Part shown: piece after piece, positions 8,256-61,302 of the stretch
How the letters are laid out: every line of letters starts with the position of its first letter
Position numbering within the stretch: the first letter of the stretch is position 1
From: Escherichia phage JoYop
Sequence record: OR769032.1
DNA length: 64,000 nucleotides
Direction: 5' to 3' (one strand)
Made by a program: the position numbers and the translations under genes
Notes under the pieces: generated by a model
Databases searched by the model: none
The model's input: the letters and a program-made list of their open reading frames with translations, nothing else
What the model was told of the DNA's origin: nothing

Positions 8256-8313
8256 TTTCTGTTCCTCCGTAGTTGATAGTTGTATAGTACCACAGAGGAA
8301 CAGTCTTGTAAAC
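8256..8313 (-). promoter_or_regulatory. early promoter plus leader cassette (type B copy 1)
   Basis: Coding strand GTTTACAAGACTGTTCCTCTGTGGTACTATACAACTATCAACTACGGAGGAACAGAAA-ATG; 61 bp identical to 61242..61302. Confidence 0.6.
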
Positions 8314-15996: not shown

Positions 15997-16401
15997 TTAT
16001 TCCTTAAAATGTGCTTTCAACATCTGATACAAAGACCATGCGTGTTCATTATTTTCAATAGTAACTTTCATTACCGGGAATTCTGTGAAATCTTCTATCT
16101 GTTCCTGCTCTTCAGAAGCTTGGTATGGATTTTCCACTTCATCAAAGAACTCAGCTTCGTTAGTAGAGAGCCAGATAAAGTTTTCGTCAAGGATATCAGC
16201 GCCGGCACAACGTTTGAGTACACCTGTGAATGTCACAATTTTAGTAGGACGACTGAGATGGTCAACATCTAAAATTTTAAAAGGCTCCATACCTAAACGT
16301 CGTGCATAGATTCCGTTATCAGTATGGTCTTTAATAAAAGCTTCTTGAGCTTGTTTATTTTTAAATTGATACCATTTATTAACTTCAAATCTAATAGCCA
16401 T
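15997..16401 (-). CDS. hypothetical acidic protein (134 aa), goF-like by position
   Basis: Track ORF upstream of cef-like ORF. Confidence 0.5.
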
Positions 16402-17569: not shown

Positions 17570-18003
17570 TAGCTTACACGAACATTAATCACTGCGCTGC
17601 GAGGAACTACGGAGTACTCTCCAGCATGAACTACATTAAGAAGTTCAACGCCATCTTCAATCCACTGGTCAGTTACCCAACCGCCAATCGGATTCGCGAA
17701 TGGACGACGAATATAAACTGCCTTACACAACAGATCAGTCGGGTCTTCAGGTTTTTCAATTTCTGTCAATAGATTAAAATCTTCTTCATAGATGATGAAT
17801 GATGATACCCTTCCATAATAGTTTCTAATTTCCATGTACACTGTACCAATGAGAATTCCGCTATTAACACTAATAACAGTAAAAGGATATCCGCCAGTTG
17901 TACCAAGAAGTTCCCAAAACTTGCTATCAGTCGTATTCGACATTGTCTGGAAATCAATTTCAGACGGTTTTTTCATTTGATACGTAGTATTAATTTTAAT
18001 CAT
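17569..18003 (-). CDS. hypothetical protein (144 aa), paralogue of 16998..17495 in its C-terminal part
   Basis: C-terminal WVTDQWIEDGVELLNVVHAGEYSVVP aligns with ITDQWVEDGVKLYNAVFLGTYKVIP. Confidence 0.5.
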   Translation of the reverse strand: MIKINTTYQMKKPSEIDFQTMSNTTDSKFWELLGTTGGYPFTVISVNSGILIGTVYMEIRNYYGRVSSFIIYEEDFNLLTEIEKPEDPTDLLCKAVYIRRPFANPIGGWVTDQWIEDGVELLNVVHAGEYSVVPRSAVINVRVS

Positions 18004-27096: not shown

Positions 27097-27168
27097 TATT
27101 TTTTCCTTTCAATTCATGGGTTAGTAGATTAATTATACAATAAATATATAAAGCAATAAGGAGGACAT

Positions 27169-27369
27169 ATGGTACAAAAATTAATGGCACTTGTCAATGC
27201 CATAAAAGGTAATAAAAAGCGTATAGCTTTTACTATTTCTGCTATGGTAGGAATTTTACTCTGGAACTTTATTTTATCACCAATTGCAATTGCGCATGGT
27301 GTTAATATTCCAGTAGTTACTCTTGATACATTCGTAGATTTAGCATTTGCTCTAGTTGGGCTAATTTAA
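27169..27369 (+). CDS. small membrane protein (66 aa) on the opposite strand
   Basis: Strong SD AAGGAGG 5 nt before ATG; hydrophobic segments; AATAAATA/TATATAAA late-promoter-like AT box upstream; convergent with gene 61. Confidence 0.55.
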   Translation: MVQKLMALVNAIKGNKKRIAFTISAMVGILLWNFILSPIAIAHGVNIPVVTLDTFVDLAFALVGLI

Positions 27370-28394
27370 ATCTTAGCATATTTAGATAGCCGCATTTTAG
27401 CCATTAACCCCTGGGCAATATTATTTTTCATATATTCCATAATTTGTTCAGGGGTTGCACCTTCCTTTCTAATCATATCATTAACATCTTTAGATTTCCA
27501 GGGAGATTTATCCCAAAACATAACCCTTTCTCCTGCATTGACTAATTTAGTCATTCGCTTAATTGTATCAGGATGCCGAGGTTCATTATCTAAGACCCAC
27601 ACACGTCTATCTTTAAATGGAACAACTTCTAGGTCTAATTGGCCACCCGTAATGGCTATACCATTTTCAATAAAAAGTGAGTCGATAGGTCCTTCTAGAA
27701 CATATACATCACCATCTTTAACTCGTTCAACACCGTAAATTTTTGTTGCCTCAGGATAAGCTTTGATGGTGATATATTTTTGAGGAGCATCTTTCTTTAA
27801 TGCGCGTCCTTGAAAAGACTCAGCTTTTCCGTTAGCATTATAAATTGGAATAACAAGTCTAGGTTCAGAAATTTCCTTTTTGTATGTTCCTGGAGCTATG
27901 CTATTAACTAATTTAGGCCATTCAGATGTAAACCAAAGATACTTCCATTTATCCTTTGGAATACAACGAGCTTTTACATATTTTATAATTGGATGGTCTT
28001 CCGCCAGTTTATCTAATCTAATGCATGACGGAAGAGATTTAATTATTTTCTTCTCAGGTTGTTTAGGAAGTTCTTTAGGTTTTTCTACTGGACGACTTTT
28101 ACCTTTTTCTTTTCTTATTTCAAAGATATACTCACGATATAAATCAGGTTCAAACTCCTTTAAATATATTCCGATTGGTGCATGATAGTTGCAGTTATAA
28201 CAATGAATATTTCCTTCATTATTATCGCCATAATACCATCCACGGGCTTTATTTTGATCGGTTTTTGAATCTCCACAAACAGGGCATCTAAACCGTAATT
28301 TAAAAGTTGAACTATTATTTACTTGTGTAAATTTAGGTAAATGAGCTAATGCACGGTATGCAAACTCATTATCAATCCAAGGTATTGATGACAT
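27366..28394 (-). CDS. 61: DNA primase gp61
   Basis: 342 aa; zinc-ribbon CPVCGDSK...CYNCNYH; same size as T4 gp61. Confidence 0.9.
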   Translation of the reverse strand: MSSIPWIDNEFAYRALAHLPKFTQVNNSSTFKLRFRCPVCGDSKTDQNKARGWYYGDNNEGNIHCYNCNYHAPIGIYLKEFEPDLYREYIFEIRKEKGKSRPVEKPKELPKQPEKKIIKSLPSCIRLDKLAEDHPIIKYVKARCIPKDKWKYLWFTSEWPKLVNSIAPGTYKKEISEPRLVIPIYNANGKAESFQGRALKKDAPQKYITIKAYPEATKIYGVERVKDGDVYVLEGPIDSLFIENGIAITGGQLDLEVVPFKDRRVWVLDNEPRHPDTIKRMTKLVNAGERVMFWDKSPWKSKDVNDMIRKEGATPEQIMEYMKNNIAQGLMAKMRLSKYAKI

Positions 28395-28396
28395 TT

Positions 28397-28561
28397 TTAC
28401 TCTTCTTTTTCTTTAGATTCCTCTTTTTTCTTTTTAGGAATCTGCTCAGGACCTTTATTTACTACAGCGCCTGACGTTGTTCCAGTGGAGATATTTTCAG
28501 GATTACCACCTGAATCTCCAGCGACCATATCTTCTTTGATAAATTCTTTATACGTTTTCAT
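28397..28561 (-). CDS. hypothetical small lysine-rich protein (54 aa)
   Basis: Manual translation MKTYKEFIKEDMVAGDSGGNPENISTGTTSGAVVNKGPEQIPKKKKEESKEKEE. Confidence 0.35.
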   Translation of the reverse strand: MKTYKEFIKEDMVAGDSGGNPENISTGTTSGAVVNKGPEQIPKKKKEESKEKEE

Positions 28562-28562
28562 A

Positions 28563-28919
28563 TTAACCTCTATTCATAAAAGCATTAAAAATTTGGTCAT
28601 CAATCGACGGAATAGCAACCTTTTCTGCGTTATTTAGCAAATCATTAATTTCATCAGATAGCATAACACATGTACCTTTATTTCCTGTAATTGTTACTGC
28701 GCAATTACGAACGTTTTCTTTATCAAATTTTAGGTTAATATTTTCGTAGTGAAAATCCTTTAATGCTGAATATATTTTTAAAATAAAATTATCTTTTACT
28801 ACAATAAAACCGACTTCACTGTTAAAACGCGGCTCATGAAAACTGTAATAAACCTTTTCATCTATAAAATCGTATGAAATTTTTTCCATTTTTAAATATG
28901 GAAATTCAGAACTATACAT
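28563..28919 (-). CDS. hypothetical protein (118 aa)
   Basis: Track ORF between sp and gene 61. Confidence 0.5.
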   Translation of the reverse strand: MYSSEFPYLKMEKISYDFIDEKVYYSFHEPRFNSEVGFIVVKDNFILKIYSALKDFHYENINLKFDKENVRNCAVTITGNKGTCVMLSDEINDLLNNAEKVAIPSIDDQIFNAFMNRG

Positions 28920-28931
28920 ATTAACCTCTAA

Positions 28932-29225
28932 TTATTCACCTACCACTTCAGCGATGATATTTTTATTATTAAAGTTTTTATCGCAATACAAAACATAATT
29001 ATACTGCATTACACCGCCAGATTTAAGCTGTTTTTGCACTTCAGCTTTCATTTCAGGACGATCGCGCTCAACGATATTCATAATATCTGCTTCAATTTGA
29101 GTTTCAACCTCAGTCTGATCTGCAGTCATAGACCACTCACATAAATCTTTATCATAACCCGCCATAGCAGGCTGAGCAGTACAAGAAGCCAAAGCAAAAA
29201 TTGCAGCAAAAACAAATTTTTTCAT
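28932..29225 (-). CDS. sp: Spackle periplasmic protein
   Basis: 97 aa with signal peptide MKKFVFAAIFALASCTAQPAMAGYDKD; same size and position as T4 sp. Confidence 0.75.
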   Translation of the reverse strand: MKKFVFAAIFALASCTAQPAMAGYDKDLCEWSMTADQTEVETQIEADIMNIVERDRPEMKAEVQKQLKSGGVMQYNYVLYCDKNFNNKNIIAEVVGE

Positions 29226-29251
29226 GATAATCTCCTCAGTAGTTTATGTTT

Positions 29252-29281
29252 ATAGTATCTCAATTTTCAACAAAAGTAAAC
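29252..29281 (-). promoter_or_regulatory. early promoter upstream of sp
   Basis: Coding strand GTTTACTTTTGTTGAAAATTGAGATACTAT. Confidence 0.5.
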
Positions 29282-29328
29282 ACTAGTAGAAGCAAACAGA
29301 CAAATTGCAATAATTGGTGATTTCAGTT

Positions 29329-29511
29329 TCATTCTTCTCCTCCTTCATGTTGATGAACATATTCTTTTTCAAGTCTAGAGCACAAGTTTTCATATTCAAC
29401 TAATAAAAGTGAATCAAGTGCGTTATTTCTATGCTGACACCGTTCTTGTAAAGAATCCATTTCTGAGCGTTGTTCTTGTGTTAATAATTGATAACCTGAT
29501 ACTTTAGACAT
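29329..29511 (-). CDS. hypothetical protein (60 aa)
   Basis: Track ORF trimmed to the ATG after leader GGAGAACAAA (MSKVSGYQLLTQEQRSEMDSLQERCQHRNN...). Confidence 0.5.
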   Translation of the reverse strand: MSKVSGYQLLTQEQRSEMDSLQERCQHRNNALDSLLLVEYENLCSRLEKEYVHQHEGGEE

Positions 29512-29547
29512 TTTGTTCTCCATTTACTCGTTTGTTTTGATAGGTCT

Positions 29548-29576
29548 ATAATAACATGTTTAAAACAAAAGTAAAC
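29548..29576 (-). promoter_or_regulatory. early promoter
   Basis: Coding strand GTTTACTTTTGTTTTAAACATGTTATTAT upstream of ORF 29329..29511. Confidence 0.45.
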
Positions 29577-29830
29577 TATTTTATTTCCTCAAGTTCGTTA
29601 ATCAATAAAAGTTCTCTGACGCTAAAAACAAAGAAAAATGTGTTCCCATCAACCAGAGCATGACCGCTAATAGAACACCCTCTGCGGAATTTAGAAACTT
29701 CACAATCTAGAACTGTAAAGGGTTTTAATCCTATGACTTTAGCTGTGCGTCTATTCAGTTCACAACCACTCGCGAATTTTTCCAAATCTTCTTCTGATTT
29801 AAACTGATATTCTCTATTAACTAGCATCAT
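29576..29830 (-). CDS. hypothetical protein (84 aa)
   Basis: Track ORF with its own early promoter. Confidence 0.5.
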   Translation of the reverse strand: MMLVNREYQFKSEEDLEKFASGCELNRRTAKVIGLKPFTVLDCEVSKFRRGCSISGHALVDGNTFFFVFSVRELLLINELEEIK

Positions 29831-29861
29831 TTTCTTTTCTCCGCGATTAGCTGATAGAATT

Positions 29862-29891
29862 ACTATAACACAACTCTATCAGCTTGTAAAC
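29862..29891 (-). promoter_or_regulatory. early promoter
   Basis: Coding strand GTTTACAAGCTGATAGAGTTGTGTTATAGT. Confidence 0.45.
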
Positions 29892-29914
29892 TACTATTTT
29901 ACTAGCATCAATAA

Positions 29915-30178
29915 CTATTTCTCTAACTTGACGATTTTACGAAAGTATCTTTTGCATTGACGAATCTGTCGCTTAGTAGGGCGCACAGCAAACTTAATAA
30001 ATTCCACTCGACCGAATGGAGGGTTTTCTTCTGATGGAATATCTAACACCAATTCCCACGTATCTGCGATAAGTGCTTTGAATTGAGTATTTTTCCTAAC
30101 GTTATACGGAGTAGGCTTAAATAAAACTATATGCATATTATCCTCGGCAATCCACTTCACACACTTTCTTGTCATCAA
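29915..30178 (-). CDS. hypothetical basic protein (87 aa)
   Basis: Track ORF; overlaps dmd-like ORF by 41 nt, true start may be internal. Confidence 0.45.
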   Translation of the reverse strand: MMTRKCVKWIAEDNMHIVLFKPTPYNVRKNTQFKALIADTWELVLDIPSEENPPFGRVEFIKFAVRPTKRQIRQCKRYFRKIVKLEK

Positions 30179-30320
30179 TGAAAGCTTTAACTAGCGCTTT
30201 ATTAACTTCAGCATATTGAGTAGTAGCCCATTGAACATCATCTTTCATCATTGTGATTTCTTTAGTAAACATGCTTTCATTCTTAAACCACCCCATAAAA
30301 ACTACCTTTACCAATTCCAT
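30138..30320 (-). CDS. dmd: Dmd-like protein (60 aa), antitoxin against RnlA-type toxins
   Basis: 60 aa and immediately next to gene 41 as T4 dmd; own early promoter; assignment by position/size. Confidence 0.55.
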   Translation of the reverse strand: MELVKVVFMGWFKNESMFTKEITMMKDDVQWATTQYAEVNKALVKAFIDDKKVCEVDCRG

Positions 30321-30349
30321 AACAATCTCCTCATTTAACCAACAAGACT

Positions 30350-30379
30350 ACTATACCATAGTCTTGTCAGCTTGTAAAC
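30350..30379 (-). promoter_or_regulatory. early promoter upstream of dmd-like gene
   Basis: Coding strand GTTTACAAGCTGACAAGACTATGGTATAGT; -35 overlaps gene 41 stop. Confidence 0.5.
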
Positions 30380-31806
30380 TAAAATTTTAATTCATTCGCC
30401 AAAGCATCTAACTGAGCTCGAGTCGATTCATTTCTTTGATAGCGATTCTGCTCAGCCTGAATCTGCTGCGAACCTGCCACTTCATTCACTTCGGTTGGAG
30501 TAGAATCTTGTTCAATTTCTACCCATTTTTGATTTCCTTTTTGAACACCCATTAAAAACTTATTCCATTTATTCTTATCACCATATCGTGATTTGATTTG
30601 CTTAATGAGTTGCTGTTCAGCAGCTGCTAACTCCTCGGTTTCAATGACCGCAAGCATAAAATCGGCTGTCGCTGGAAGACCAGCAGATTCTGCGATATCA
30701 CTCATGTTAACATCAGAAGAGTCCCAAGCTTGCTTACCAACCTGTGCTGCAGTCCAAAGAACAGTTTCGGTTTCAACAGCCAGAGCACGTAATTCCTCTG
30801 CAATAGCTTTAACAGTTGTGTAACTATTTTCTGAATAAACTCGGATGCGACACGATTTACAAATACCCAAATAGTCGACAATAATGATTGTTGGAACAAA
30901 ATTCTTCTTGAGCTTCAATTCGTTTAAAAGTGATCGAAATGTATTAGCGTCTGCTCCACCAGTAGGATACTGTTTAACGATTAAACGACCGAGAGTAGAT
31001 TTCTCACGCCATTTTTCCATTTTTCCTTTATACTCAGCGTAAGAAATATGCCCATCATCAATGTCATCAAGAGAAACATCAAGCATATTAGCATCAATAC
31101 GCTTAGCACAGACTTCTTCAGCCATTTCCATGGAAATGTAAAGAACATTATGTCCAAGCTGTAAATAATCCGCTGCTAGTGAACACAATCCTAATGACTT
31201 ACCAACGTTAACGCCAGCCATTAAAACATTTAGTGTTCCAGTCTCAGCTCCGCCTTTAGTAATTTTGTTCAGAATTTTTAGTTTAAATGGAACCTTACGA
31301 GCTTTATTCATATAAGATAGCCAACGTGCTTCATAGTCATCCATCCAATCATGACCAACGTAACTATCAAATGAAATAGATAATGCTTGCCGCATGATGT
31401 CAGGAATGGCACCTACATCTGGCATTTTCTTATTTCGTTTTTCCGGAGGAAGCTCAGCATTAGTTTGAATTTCAATTATTTTAGATGTGGCGTTAAACAT
31501 CGCCCTTTGCTGAACATATTTTTCTGTTTCTTTTACTAACCAGCTGTGGTCTTCCGGAGAATCAGCTAGTTTTGAAATAAGTGTTTTTACACCAGAATAT
31601 TCTGTTTCAGTAAATGAACTATTTTCTAATGCAACATTTAACGCATTAATAGATGGAACGCTATGGTACTCATCGACATGAGATTTAATTAATTTGAATG
31701 TATTTTTAGCTGGACCACTTTCAAAATATTCTGAATCCATATATGGCCAAACTTTTGAAAAATAAGCTTGATCAAATATGAGATGAGAAAGAATAATTTC
31801 TACCAC
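30379..31806 (-). CDS. 41: replicative DNA helicase gp41 (DnaB family)
   Basis: 475 aa; Walker A GVNVGKS; same size as T4 gp41. Confidence 0.9.
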   Translation of the reverse strand: MVEIILSHLIFDQAYFSKVWPYMDSEYFESGPAKNTFKLIKSHVDEYHSVPSINALNVALENSSFTETEYSGVKTLISKLADSPEDHSWLVKETEKYVQQRAMFNATSKIIEIQTNAELPPEKRNKKMPDVGAIPDIMRQALSISFDSYVGHDWMDDYEARWLSYMNKARKVPFKLKILNKITKGGAETGTLNVLMAGVNVGKSLGLCSLAADYLQLGHNVLYISMEMAEEVCAKRIDANMLDVSLDDIDDGHISYAEYKGKMEKWREKSTLGRLIVKQYPTGGADANTFRSLLNELKLKKNFVPTIIIVDYLGICKSCRIRVYSENSYTTVKAIAEELRALAVETETVLWTAAQVGKQAWDSSDVNMSDIAESAGLPATADFMLAVIETEELAAAEQQLIKQIKSRYGDKNKWNKFLMGVQKGNQKWVEIEQDSTPTEVNEVAGSQQIQAEQNRYQRNESTRAQLDALANELKF

Positions 31807-61244: not shown

Positions 61245-61302
61245 TTTCTGTTCCTCCGTAGTTGATAGTTGTATAGTACCACAGAGGAACAGTCTTGTAA
61301 AC
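61242..61302 (-). promoter_or_regulatory. early promoter plus leader cassette (type B copy 2)
   Basis: 61 bp identical to 8253..8313. Confidence 0.6.

What the first reader, a model, noticed from the sequence alone, without database searches (positions are those of the whole stretch)
28397..30320. Primase-helicase interval packed with small early ORFs each with its own promoter
Seven small ORFs lie between gene 61 and gene 41, four with their own GTTTAC-type promoters. Only sp (by signal peptide and size) and a dmd-like gene (60 aa, next to gene 41) could be named. In T4 this interval is known to hold host-interaction genes such as dmd, so the unnamed ORFs are reasonable anti-defence candidates, but that is inference.
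Basis: partly seen in the sequence, partly recalled or inferred. Interest (0 to 1): 0.4.

Follow-up and report, generated by a model that had tools for sequence, protein, structure and literature searches.

The report
T4-type anti-toxin island between primase and helicase
This stretch of a T4-like phage genome is the already described "anti-toxin island" between the primase and helicase genes. Here it carries two extra uncharacterised single-gene cassettes, and it also holds one small gene (61.1) that turns out to be a conserved copy of the tip of the major capsid protein rather than a typical anti-defence gene.

Summary
Seven minus-strand ORFs lie between gene 61 (primase) and gene 41 (helicase). 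Exactly four GTTTAC-type early promoters lie among them, about 50 times more than chance predicts for this length.

The window is a Tequatrovirus, about 97% identical to ime09, IME339 and PP01.

- **Five ORFs are T4 orthologues or slot-equivalents:** dmd (100% identical), tifA/61.4 (97%, but cut to 73 aa by a nonsense codon), sp (96%), 61.1 (96%) and a short allele in the 61.2 slot.
- **Two ORFs are absent from T4:** ORF84, a GoF N-domain paralogue, and ORF60/64, a rare ORFan family. Each is a promoter-plus-gene cassette inserted between tifA and sp, with junctions at promoter -35 boxes.

Srikant et al. 2022 call this T4 region an anti-TA island (Dmd against RnlA, TifA against ToxN, AdfA against DarT) and flag the neighbouring genes as candidates.

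Two corrections apply.

- The 118-aa 61.2 allele is not a credible AdfA.
- 61.1 is not an accessory gene. It sits directly upstream of the primase across Straboviridae. It carries an internal-protein-like capsid targeting leader and an invariant protease-type site, followed by a homologue of the gp23 "N-fist".

ORF60 and ORF84 remain open anti-defence candidates.

The parts
30350..30379 (-). Early promoter P(dmd): GTTTACAAGCTGACAAGACTATGGTATAGT. Its -35 box overlaps the gene 41 stop codon. It drives dmd and tifA.
   Evidence: Found by the promoter scan and the pattern search. The T4 equivalent is cited as an early promoter in PMC9391042. A 9-nt inverted repeat at 30342-30350 / 30359-30367 straddles the -10 box.
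30138..30320 (-). dmd (61.5), 60 aa. Antitoxin-like inhibitor of RnlA.
   Evidence: Pfam PF17587 matches full length, E 1.6e-46. 100% identical to T4 Dmd. Function is taken from PMC9391042 and PMC3014915.
29915..30136 (-). tifA (61.4), 73 aa. RNA-binding inhibitor of ToxN, here truncated by a CAG->TAG nonsense codon at codon 74.
   Evidence: Pfam DUF7279, E 5.5e-21. 97% identical to T4 TifA over 73 aa; T4 TifA is 85 aa and ime09 TifA is 80 aa. F41, P53-T54 and the basic helix K55/R56/R59 are retained (read from the sequence; these features are defined in PMC10853763).
29862..29891 (-). Early promoter P(ORF84): GTTTACAAGCTGATAGAGTTGTGTTATAGT.
   Evidence: It shares 15 nt with P(dmd). A 13-nt inverted repeat at 29849-29861 / 29872-29884 straddles the -10 box.
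29576..29830 (-). ORF84: an 84-aa stand-alone paralogue of the GoF N-terminal domain. Absent from T4 at this site.
   Evidence: PHROG phrog_2980 ('goF'), E 3e-20. BLASTP to T4 GoF residues 7-47 gives 37% identity, E 2e-8. Found in 83 phage records. Homologues at 57-81% identity sit in the same 41-61 interval in SP18 and in metagenomic contigs.
29548..29576 (-). Early promoter P(ORF60): GTTTACTTTTGTTTTAAACATGTTATTAT. Its -35 box overlaps the ORF84 stop codon.
   Evidence: Promoter, 5' UTR and the first four codons together are 84% identical to the RB69 motA leader. It shares 13 nt with P(sp).
29329..29511 (-). ORF60 (64 aa if counted from the upstream ATG at 29523). A small acidic protein, predicted helical, from a rare phage-only family.
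   Evidence: Matches only phrog_37915. Found in 20 phage records, all at least 97% identical. One cluster in the 5.8-billion-protein index. Nine relatives at 47-69% identity in an exhaustive HMMER search. No Pfam or PDB match.
29252..29281 (-). Early promoter P(sp): GTTTACTTTTGTTGAAAATTGAGATACTAT. It drives sp, 61.2, 61.1 and probably reads into gene 61.
   Evidence: Conserved with T4 from the -35 box onward. PMC9391042 mentions a T4 promoter downstream of tifA.
28932..29225 (-). sp (spackle), 97 aa, periplasmic, with a signal peptide.
   Evidence: Pfam PF25676, E 9e-45. 96% identical to T4 Sp.
28563..28919 (-). Short 118-aa allele in the 61.2 slot (phrog_4122). Not a credible AdfA.
   Evidence: PHROG E 7e-72. 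The Pfam AdfA hit (E 1.8e-8, C-terminal half only) disappears when the last 14 residues are removed. Identity to T4 AdfA is 35% over 103 columns, and the last 14 aa are identical. T2 carries the same allele. The literature describes T2 as lacking adfA, and T2 lacking adfN is DarTG1-sensitive.
28397..28561 (-). 61.1, 54 aa. It consists of an IP-type leader MKTYKEFIKE, a homologue of the gp23 N-fist / N-arm, and a Lys/Glu-rich tail. It ends 2 nt before the gene 61 start.
   Evidence: 96% identical to T4 gp61.1. The leader is compared with T4 IPI/IPII/IPIII. BLASTP to gp23 residues 57-93 gives 43% identity, E 3e-9. A family profile searched against all PDB sequences hits only T4 gp23, E 1.5e-8. 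In 59 of 60 loci the gene lies directly upstream of the primase. Before the conserved core, P1 is Glu in 60/60 loci and P3 is L/M/I/V in 60/60.

Best explanation
**What it is.** The interval is the hyperplastic "anti-toxin / host-interaction" island that T4-like phages keep between the helicase gene 41 and the primase gene 61.

**Transcription units.** It is organised as four early units, each headed by a T4-type sigma-70 early promoter (GTTTAC ... TG-n-TAnnnT). The products should therefore be made within the first minutes of infection.
- P(dmd) drives dmd and tifA.
- P(ORF84) drives ORF84.
- P(ORF60) drives ORF60.
- P(sp) drives sp, the 61.2 allele and 61.1, and probably reads into gene 61. 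These genes are translationally coupled: the sequence GAGGTTAATATG recurs at two of the junctions.

**Shown by orthology to characterised T4 proteins.**
- Dmd neutralises the RnlA RNase toxin.
- TifA traps ToxN on RNA.
- Sp is the periplasmic spackle protein.

**Inferred.**
- ORF84 and ORF60 are independently mobile promoter-plus-gene cassettes inserted between tifA and P(sp). The recombination points lie in the conserved -35 / promoter sequences, and for ORF60 in a borrowed motA-type leader.
- ORF84 is a stand-alone GoF-type (LSm/SH3-like) N-domain. Its most likely role is as a small RNA-binding factor that protects phage mRNA or sequesters an RNase toxin.
- ORF60 is a small acidic helical protein, most likely a stoichiometric inhibitor of an unidentified host factor.
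- The 61.2 slot holds alternative, unrelated alleles that share only the 3' tail, which contains the ribosome-binding site of 61.1.
- 61.1 is not island cargo. It is a core gene of the family. It is most likely made as a precursor whose leader or pro-domain is removed at an invariant [LIVM]-x-Glu site by the prohead protease, releasing a peptide of about 44 aa that mimics the N-fist of the mature major capsid protein.
For: - **Identity of the locus.** It is 96-97% identical to ime09, IME339 and PP01, with the same gene order.
- **Orthology to T4.** Shown.
- **Promoters.** Four promoter matches fall in 1.9 kb, against 21 in the whole 64-kb window and 2.6 expected for the whole window.
- **T4 expression data.** 61.2, sp, 61.4 and dmd are early at both RNA and protein level; 61.1 RNA is early (PMC9697503 supplement).
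- **Published functions.**
- **Cassette nature.** T4 lacks both inserts. ORF84 is in 83 phage records and ORF60 in only 20, and some phages (RB3, phiC600P9) carry ORF84 without ORF60.
- **Junctions.** Homology with T4 breaks after tifA codon 75 and resumes at the -35 box of P(sp). P(ORF84) shares 15 nt with P(dmd). P(ORF60) shares 13 nt with P(sp), and its leader is 84% identical to the RB69 motA leader.
- **Recurrence of ORF84.** Homologues recur in the same interval in another genus and abut a TifA-family gene.
- **GoF family.** The background is in PMC12152347.
- **61.1.**
Against: - No function was tested for ORF60, ORF84, the 61.2 allele or 61.1.
- AlphaFold2 models of ORF84 and the 61.2 allele were too poor to use (pLDDT 51 and 50), so the LSm-like fold of ORF84 rests on sequence homology to GoF alone.
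- Wild-type GoF itself has no known function.
- The transcription start sites are predicted for the two inserted cassettes, not measured.
- TifA is truncated here, and its activity is untested.
- gp61.1 protein was not detected in the T4 whole-cell proteome and is not mentioned in a T4 head mass-spectrometry study.
- The universal position of 61.1 in front of the primase could instead reflect a role in replication or in translational coupling.
Confidence: 0.8

Rival explanations
1. All the unnamed ORFs in the interval (61.1, the 61.2 allele, ORF60, ORF84, 61.4) are anti-defence factors.
For: - Two neighbours are proven anti-toxin factors, and the T4 region has been called an anti-TA island.
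- 61.4 is indeed TifA.
- ORF60 and ORF84 have the patchy distribution expected of accessory counter-defence genes.
Against: - 61.1 is present in about 1400 Straboviridae records and sits directly upstream of the primase in 59 of 60 sampled loci. In Aeromonas phage 31.2 it is the only gene between 41 and 61. That is the pattern of a core gene.
- 61.1 is homologous to a structural segment of gp23.
- Phage T2 carries the same short 61.2 allele and becomes DarTG1-sensitive once adfN is deleted.
- Sp acts against other phages, not against host defence.
Confidence: 0.15
2. ORF84 is not a counter-defence gene. It is a regulator of phage mRNA metabolism, an extra GoF-type paralogue acting on phage transcripts such as the gene 41 message.
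For: - It is homologous to the GoF N-domain.
- The GoF(D25Y) mutant stabilises gene 41 mRNA.
- ORF84 lies just downstream of gene 41. The window already has its own goF and motB.1, so the family is expanding by paralogy.
Against: - Wild-type GoF and MotB.1 had little effect in the reporter assays (abstract).
- ORF84 is absent from most Tequatroviruses, including T4, so it cannot be needed for basic gene expression.
- It recurs next to TifA-family genes.
Confidence: 0.25
3. gp61.1 is a replication accessory, or merely a leader ORF that sets primase translation. On this view its resemblance to gp23 and to the internal-protein leader is a relic without function.
For: - It is invariably adjacent to gene 61 across the family.
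- A 2-nt gap and a weak Shine-Dalgarno sequence precede gene 61.
- Its RNA class is early, and the protein was not detected.
Against: - There is strong protein-level conservation of a 28-aa motif from Vibrio/KVP40-like phages to coliphages. A mere leader ORF would not conserve it.
- The Glu at P1 is invariant and P3 is always hydrophobic. Both align exactly with the gp23 maturation site.
- In Tevenvirinae the long N-domain is replaced by a leader that keeps all four residues shown to matter for IPIII targeting and processing.
- The known internal proteins are also in the early-RNA class.
Confidence: 0.3
4. ORF60 and ORF84 are spurious or decaying ORFs that ride on duplicated promoters and encode nothing functional.
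For: They are short, have no Pfam domain, and ORF60 has almost no database relatives.
Against: - ORF84 homologues at 57-81% amino-acid identity keep full length in other genera and in metagenomes.
- ORF60 has nine relatives at 47-69% identity with a conserved motif. Some of them form the C-terminal domain of larger proteins.
- Both ORFs have a GGAG Shine-Dalgarno sequence at proper spacing.
Confidence: 0.05

Closest known systems
T4 dmd-tifA-adfA 'anti-TA island' (Srikant, Guegler & Laub 2022, eLife; PMC9391042)
   Same: The position between genes 41 and 61 is the same. dmd is identical and tifA nearly identical. The early promoter upstream of dmd and the second promoter downstream of tifA are both present. 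sp and 61.1 are the same genes.
   Different: Two extra single-gene cassettes (ORF84, ORF60) lie between tifA and sp. TifA lacks its last 12 residues. The 208-aa AdfA is replaced by an unrelated 118-aa allele that shares only the last 14 residues.
PeSL promoter cassettes of T4-type phages (Arbiol et al. 2010; Comeau et al. 2014, PMC4122927)
   Same: The early promoters fit the PST/T4 consensus TTTACW-N17-TAYWAT. They sit at indel boundaries between close relatives in a hyperplastic region, and each is followed by a Shine-Dalgarno sequence and a small ORF.
   Different: In PeSLs as described, the stem-loop lies just upstream of the promoter. Here the inverted repeats (13, 9 and 8 nt) straddle the -10 box. 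The mini-circle mechanism proposed for PeSLs was not tested.
[quoted passage not shown] 2025, PMC12152347)
   Same: The N-terminal ~45 residues of ORF84 align to GoF residues 7-47 at 37% identity. It is an early gene, and its length matches the GoF N-domain (residues 1-91).
   Different: ORF84 has no C-terminal domain. It sits at a different locus, is patchily distributed, and is an additional copy alongside the window's own goF. The fold was not confirmed here.
T4 internal proteins IPI, IPII, IPIII and their capsid targeting sequence
   Same: gp61.1 starts MKTYKEFIKE, against MKTYQEFIAE in IPII and IPIII. Residues 4, 7, 8 and 10, the ones shown to matter for targeting and processing, are the same. 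It is a small protein encoded among host-interaction genes.
   Different: gp61.1 has never been reported in heads. Its mature part is conserved across the whole family, whereas the internal proteins are hypervariable. Outside Tevenvirinae the leader is replaced by a pro-domain of about 110 aa.
[quoted passage not shown]
   Same: The 61.1 family profile aligns to gp23 residues 49-101, with the cleavage Glu65 aligned to the invariant Glu of 61.1.
   Different: gp61.1 has none of the HK97-fold body. It ends in a Lys-rich tail and is encoded next to the primase, far from the head genes.

Membership tests
Dmd (Pfam PF17587) | Full-length match to the 60-aa Dmd profile and orthology to T4 gene 61.5, next to gene 41 | tested here: met
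   E 1.6e-46 over profile positions 1-60 of 60. 100% identical to T4 Dmd. Same position as in T4.
Dmd (Pfam PF17587) | Binds and inhibits the RnlA/LsoA toxins | not testable with these tools
   Inferred from sequence identity to the characterised T4 protein (PMC9391042).
TifA (T4 61.4; Pfam DUF7279) | DUF7279 domain with the conserved P53-T54 cap followed by a basic helix (K55, R56, R59), plus the residue-41 loop | tested here: met
   Pfam E 5.5e-21. 97% identical to T4 TifA. P53, T54, K55, R56, R59 and F41 are all present in the translated sequence. These features are defined in PMC10853763.
TifA (T4 61.4; Pfam DUF7279) | Full-length protein (85 aa in T4) | tested here: not met
   A CAG->TAG change ends the protein at residue 73. 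The lost tail already differs between T4 and ime09, so it is probably dispensable, but that is an inference.
Spackle (Pfam PF25676) | Full-length profile match and an N-terminal signal peptide | tested here: met
   E 9e-45 over profile positions 1-96 of 96. The N-terminus MKKFVFAAIFALASCTAQPAMA is read directly from the sequence.
AdfA (anti-DarT factor A; Pfam PF23813) | Homology over the body of the ~210-aa protein, including the region around residue 164 that decides DarT1 neutralisation | tested here: not met
   Only profile positions 115-211 match. With the last 14 residues removed there is no Pfam hit at E < 0.1. Excluding that tail, identity to T4 AdfA is about 25%.
AdfA (anti-DarT factor A; Pfam PF23813) | Neutralises DarT1 | tested here: inconclusive
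   Indirect evidence only. T2 carries the same short allele. The literature describes T2 as lacking adfA, and T2 without adfN is DarTG1-sensitive. Activity against other DarT variants is unknown.
GoF/MotB.1/Frd.2 LSm-like family | Sequence homology to the GoF N-terminal domain | tested here: met
   phrog_2980, E 3e-20. BLASTP E 2e-8 to T4 GoF residues 7-47. tblastn against the window's own goF gives E 5e-5.
GoF/MotB.1/Frd.2 LSm-like family | Five-stranded bent beta-sheet (LSm/SH3-like) fold | tested here: inconclusive
   The AlphaFold2 model has pLDDT 51 from a 6-sequence alignment, too poor to judge. No fold search was run on it.
PeSL (promoter-early stem-loop) cassette | Early promoter matching TTTACW-N17-TAYWAT, followed by a Shine-Dalgarno sequence and an ORF, located at indels between close relatives | tested here: met
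   The consensus is taken from PMC4122927.
PeSL (promoter-early stem-loop) cassette | Stem-loop immediately upstream of the promoter | tested here: not met
   The inverted repeats lie between the -35 box and the transcript start, enclosing the -10 box. No terminator-like site lies upstream of the promoters.
T4 internal proteins (CTS-bearing head proteins), considered for gp61.1 | N-terminal 10-residue capsid targeting sequence, with residues 4 and 7 for targeting and residues 8 and 10 for gp21 processing | tested here: met
   MKTYKEFIKE against MKTYQEFIAE is 8 of 10 identical, and Y4, F7, I8 and E10 are conserved. The criteria come from PMC9026906.
T4 internal proteins (CTS-bearing head proteins), considered for gp61.1 | Physically packaged in the prohead and cleaved by gp21 | not testable with these tools
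   No report was found. The protein was not detected in the T4 whole-cell proteome.
gp23 N-terminal region (maturation site + N-fist), considered for gp61.1 | Statistically significant homology to gp23 residues ~49-101, with the cleavage Glu aligned | tested here: met
   The family profile searched against 177,635 PDB sequences hits only gp23 chains, E 1.5e-8 and 2e-6. Pairwise BLASTP gives E 3e-9. P1 is Glu in 60 of 60 loci.

The most novel reading that the evidence does not exclude
**Claim.** gp61.1 and its homologues, present directly upstream of the primase gene throughout Straboviridae, are head-targeted precursors. A leader directs the protein into the prohead. In T-even phages the leader is an internal-protein-type capsid targeting sequence; elsewhere it is a pro-domain of about 110 aa. 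The prohead protease then cuts at an invariant [LIVM]-x-Glu site that is homologous to the gp23 maturation site. This releases a conserved peptide of about 44 aa that copies the gp23* N-fist and carries a Lys-rich tail.

**Possible roles of the peptide.**
- It could occupy N-fist binding sites left empty at symmetry-breaking positions such as the portal vertex, where the N-fists of five subunits are disordered.
- It could engage the scaffold.
- It could be injected with the DNA.
- It could act as an early decoy for host systems that sense the capsid protein.

If true, this would add an unrecognised, family-wide component to one of the best-studied virus heads.
Probability: 0.3. Interest if true: 0.65.

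Novelty: new member of a known kind. Interest (0 to 1): 0.4.

Why it matters
The island itself is known biology, and this exact arrangement is already in GenBank (ime09, IME339, PP01 and others), annotated mostly as hypothetical proteins. The analysis adds three things.

- **A short list of real candidates.** Only ORF60 and ORF84 are uncharacterised accessory cassettes. They have defined promoters, starts and distributions, which makes them direct targets for deletion or expression screens against toxin-antitoxin and other defence systems.
- **A warning on annotation.** The common 118-aa "61.2" allele should not be annotated or counted as AdfA.
- **A new lead on 61.1.** It is a core gene homologous to the maturation site and N-fist of the major capsid protein, and it carries an internal-protein-type leader. 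If confirmed, it would concern T4 head assembly rather than defence, and it can be tested with existing T4 genetics and mass spectrometry.

Tried and rejected
- **Structure prediction.** AlphaFold2 on ORF84 (6-sequence alignment, pLDDT 51) and on the 61.2 allele (pLDDT 50) was too uncertain. No fold searches were run, because the matches would be meaningless.
- **Library searches.** NCBIfam gave nothing for any of the seven proteins. The ORF60 family has no Pfam or PDB relatives. It has only one IMG/VR relative outside T4-likes and none in one-genome-per-species bacterial contigs, so there is no context to exploit.
- **Shallow alignments.** The word-indexed protein search returned only 1-5 clusters each for ORF84, ORF60 and 61.2s.
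- **AdfA membership rejected.** The 61.2 allele is not a credible AdfA once the 14-aa tail is removed.
- **Mechanical ORF rejected.** The 87-aa TTG-initiated ORF overlapping dmd is an artefact; tifA starts at the ATG at 30136.
- **Strict PeSL membership rejected.** The stem-loops are not upstream of the promoters.
- **Gol / Lit question left open.** I considered whether gp61.1 mimics the Gol peptide of gp23, the Lit protease activator. The held papers give no Gol coordinates. My recollection, unverified, is that Gol lies just after the region of similarity, at about residues 94-122.
- **61.1 long-form N-domain.** No similarity was found to T4 gp67, gp68, gp22, gp21 or the internal proteins, nor to Pfam.


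Full report
**Observation**

The interval 28397-30320 holds seven ORFs, all on the minus strand, between the primase gene 61 (27366-28394) and the helicase gene 41 (30379-31806). Two mechanical ORF calls need correcting.

- The 87-aa TTG ORF 29915-30178 overlaps dmd. The real gene starts at the ATG at 30136, one base after the dmd stop, as in T4 and ime09. That gives 73 aa.
- The 64-aa ORF most likely starts at its second ATG (29511). That ATG has GGAG six bases upstream, and the PHROG profile and the ime09 annotation both start there. That gives 60 aa.

The four GTTTAC promoters are real matches. The pattern GTTTAC-N16-18-TAnnnT occurs 21 times in the window, against 2.6 +/- 1.9 in shuffles, and 20 of the 21 are on the minus strand. 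Four of them fall in this 1.9 kb, upstream of dmd, ORF84, ORF60 and sp.

The other three genes have no promoter of their own. tifA follows dmd with a 1-nt gap. The 61.2 allele and 61.1 are each preceded by GAGGTTAATATG, and 61.1 ends 2 nt before gene 61.

**What the window is**

The DNA is 96-97% identical to the Tequatroviruses ime09, IME339, PP01 and relatives. Matches occur in 521 phage records, but only 28 cover at least 80% of the interval in one piece.

Identities against T4 are:

| Gene | Identity to T4 |
|---|---|
| Dmd | 100% |
| TifA (gp61.4) | 97% over 73 aa |
| Sp | 96% |
| gp61.1 | 96% |
| gp61 | 98.5% |
| gp41 | 99.6% |

Pfam confirms Dmd, T4_Spackle and DUF7279, the TifA family.

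**What differs from T4**

T4 has 61, 61.1, 61.2 (208 aa), sp, 61.4, dmd and 41. This window adds two genes between 61.4 and sp and has a different 61.2 allele. The junctions are informative.

- Homology with T4 runs through tifA codon 75 (…KLEKQ) and then breaks.
- It resumes exactly at the -35 box of the sp promoter (TGTTTACTTTTGTTG…).
- P(ORF84) shares 15 nt with P(dmd), and P(ORF60) shares 13 nt with P(sp).
- The ORF60 promoter, 5' UTR and first four codons (MSKV) are 84% identical to the motA leader of RB69-type phages.
- ORF84 occurs in 83 phage records and ORF60 in only 20. Phages such as RB3 and phiC600P9 carry ORF84 without ORF60.

These are therefore two independent promoter-plus-gene cassettes that were gained or lost by recombination in promoter or leader sequences. 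This is the behaviour described for PeSL cassettes in T4-type hyperplastic regions, and the promoters fit the published PST/T4 consensus TTTACW-N17-TAYWAT. The geometry differs from the PeSL definition, however. The inverted repeats found here (13, 9 and 8 nt) enclose the -10 boxes rather than preceding the promoters.

In this window TifA also carries a CAG->TAG change at codon 74, whereas ime09 reads through to 80 aa. The residues shown to matter (F41, P53-T54, K55/R56/R59) are retained.

**What is already known**

- Srikant et al. 2022 renamed T4 61.4 tifA, a ToxN inhibitor. They note that dmd-tifA is driven by an early promoter upstream of dmd and that a second promoter lies downstream of tifA. 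They list Dmd (against RnlA) and AdfA/61.2 (against DarT). [quoted passage not shown]
- Guegler et al. 2023 showed that TifA binds RNA and ToxN.
- T4 omics data class 61.2, sp, 61.4 and dmd as early at both RNA and protein level.

**ORF84**

- It matches the PHROG "goF" family (E 3e-20). It aligns to T4 GoF residues 7-47 at 37% identity (E 2e-8).
- The window has its own goF orthologue at about 16.0-16.4 kb, so ORF84 is an extra paralogue.
- Kim et al. [quoted passage not shown] The GoF(D25Y) mutant stabilises gene 41 mRNA, while wild-type function is unknown. ORF84 has the length of that domain alone.
- Homologues at 57-81% identity sit in the same 41-61 interval in Gaprivervirus SP18 and in metagenomic contigs. 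In the metagenomic contigs they directly abut, or lie one small ORF from, a DUF7279/TifA-family gene.
- My AlphaFold2 model was too poor to confirm the fold (pLDDT 51).

Best guess, by inference: a small RNA-binding protein acting on the same battlefield as Dmd and TifA, namely RNase toxins and phage mRNA stability.

**ORF60**

- It matches only phrog_37915 and forms one cluster in the indexed 5.8-billion-protein set.
- An exhaustive HMMER search of 1.84 billion representatives found nine relatives (47-69% identity, 58-169 aa). They share the motif GYxLLTxEQRxEMDxLxERxTH…LDA..L.EYE.L..RLE.E. In some relatives this is the C-terminal domain of a larger protein.
- There is no Pfam or PDB match, one IMG/VR contig, and no bacterial genome hit.

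It is a real but uncharacterised acidic phage protein (pI 4.9), probably helical.

**The 61.2 allele**

- Pfam reports AdfA at E 1.8e-8, but only for profile positions 115-211. When the last 14 residues (SIDDQIFNAFMNRG, identical to T4) are removed, the hit disappears.
- That tail contains the ribosome-binding site of 61.1, so it is probably kept as a junction.
- The allele is common, occurring in about 300 records, and is the one in T2.
- The LeRoux laboratory describes T2 as lacking an adfA homologue and shows that T2 lacking adfN becomes DarTG1-sensitive.

It should not be filed as AdfA. Its function is unknown.

**gp61.1: the unexpected part**

*Distribution.* tblastn finds 61.1 in about 1400 phage records, across phages of Escherichia, Klebsiella, Acinetobacter, Aeromonas and others. 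In 59 of 60 IMG/VR loci the primase gene begins shortly downstream. In Aeromonas phage 31.2 it is the only gene between 41 and 61. It is a core gene, not island cargo.

*Conserved core.* All homologues share a C-terminal core, (D/E)MVAGD(S/A)GGNPxNIAxGxT(S/T)GA(V/I)xxxGP…KK(K/R). It is preceded without exception by [L/M/I/V]-x-Glu: P1 is Glu in 60 of 60 loci and P3 is hydrophobic in 60 of 60.

*Variable N-terminus.* The part before that site varies. In Tevenvirinae it is a 10-12-residue leader MKT(Y/F)KEF… In other genera it is a conserved domain of about 110 aa with no Pfam match.

[quoted passage not shown] Profile positions 95-146 align to gp23 residues 49-101. The invariant Glu falls on Glu65, after which the prohead protease cuts gp23. 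gp23* residues 66-91 are the "N-fist". It makes intercapsomer contacts in the expanded head. It lies inside, next to the scaffold, before expansion. It is disordered in the five subunits that face the portal.

*Resemblance to the internal proteins.* The T-even leader MKTYKEFIKE is 8 of 10 identical to the capsid targeting sequence of IPII and IPIII (MKTYQEFIAE). It keeps residues 4 and 7 (targeting) and 8 and 10 (processing), as defined by mutagenesis of IPIII. In the whole window, in all six frames, this leader pattern occurs in full only at 61.1.

*Inference.* gp61.1 is a precursor that is targeted to the prohead and cut by gp21, releasing a 44-aa N-fist-like peptide with a basic tail.

*Cautions.*
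- The protein was not detected in the T4 whole-cell proteome.
- It is not mentioned in a T4 head mass-spectrometry study.
- I found no paper noting the resemblance.
- The early RNA class is not an objection, since ipI, ipII and ipIII are also in the early-RNA class.
- The tight link to the primase allows a rival reading: a replication accessory or a translational-coupling ORF.
- Whether the similarity touches the Gol (Lit-activating) segment of gp23 could not be checked. No held paper gives the Gol coordinates.

**Verdict**

The locus is a member of the known T4 anti-TA / host-interaction island, with known-type promoter cassettes. Its genuinely open items are ORF60, ORF84 and the 61.2 allele. 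The most novel lead is gp61.1 as a processed mimic of the capsid N-fist.

Overall interest is moderate to low (0.4). Novelty: new member of a known kind.

Noticed in passing
window 28397-28561 (gene 61.1) and loci L009-L072: [quoted passage not shown] It carries an internal-protein-type capsid targeting leader. It is preceded in all 60 sampled homologues by [LMIV]-x-Glu, and it lies directly upstream of the primase across Straboviridae. Long forms of about 155 aa exist outside Tevenvirinae.
   Followed up: yes
window 29915-29917 (stop codon of tifA): TifA ends at residue 73 because of a CAG->TAG change relative to ime09 (80 aa) and T4 (85 aa). The C-terminal tails of T4 and ime09 already differ after KLEKQ, which is also the junction of the ORF84 cassette.
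   Followed up: partly
window 29490-29582: The promoter, 5' UTR and first four codons (MSKV) of ORF60 are 84% identical to the leader of motA in RB69-type (Mosigvirus) phages. This looks like a borrowed expression module fused to an unrelated ORF.
   Followed up: partly
window 27097-27369 (between gene 56 and gene 61): T4 has the dam methyltransferase gene at this position. This window has no Dam homologue anywhere (tblastn). Instead it carries a 66-aa hydrophobic ORF on the opposite (plus) strand at 27169-27369, whose end overlaps the end of gene 61 by 4 nt. The ime09 annotation notes it as 'RB69ORF029w'.
   Followed up: partly
window 29849-29884, 30342-30367, 29531-29569: Inverted repeats of 13, 9 and 8 nt enclose the -10 boxes of three of the four early promoters. 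They would form hairpins only in read-through transcripts from upstream, or in single-stranded DNA. Their role is unknown.
   Followed up: no
window ~16000-16401 and 17659-18003, minus strand: The window also carries its own goF orthologue (85% identical to T4 GoF) and motB.1 (99%). ORF84 is therefore a third member of the LSm-like family within these 64 kb.
   Followed up: partly
loci L076-L078 (metagenomic contigs) and L005 (phage SP18): In diverged relatives the same set of small genes (ORF84-like, TifA-family, spackle, 61.2-like, dmd) is reshuffled in order within the 41-61 interval, and several further unannotated small ORFs appear. In L076 the ORF84 homologue ends exactly where the TifA-family gene begins.
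   Followed up: partly
window, whole length: 20 of the 21 GTTTAC-N16-18-TAnnnT matches are on the minus strand, and most have a TG-extended -10 box (TGGTAnnAT). Near-identical promoter copies occur at 8284-8313 and 61273-61302.
   Followed up: no
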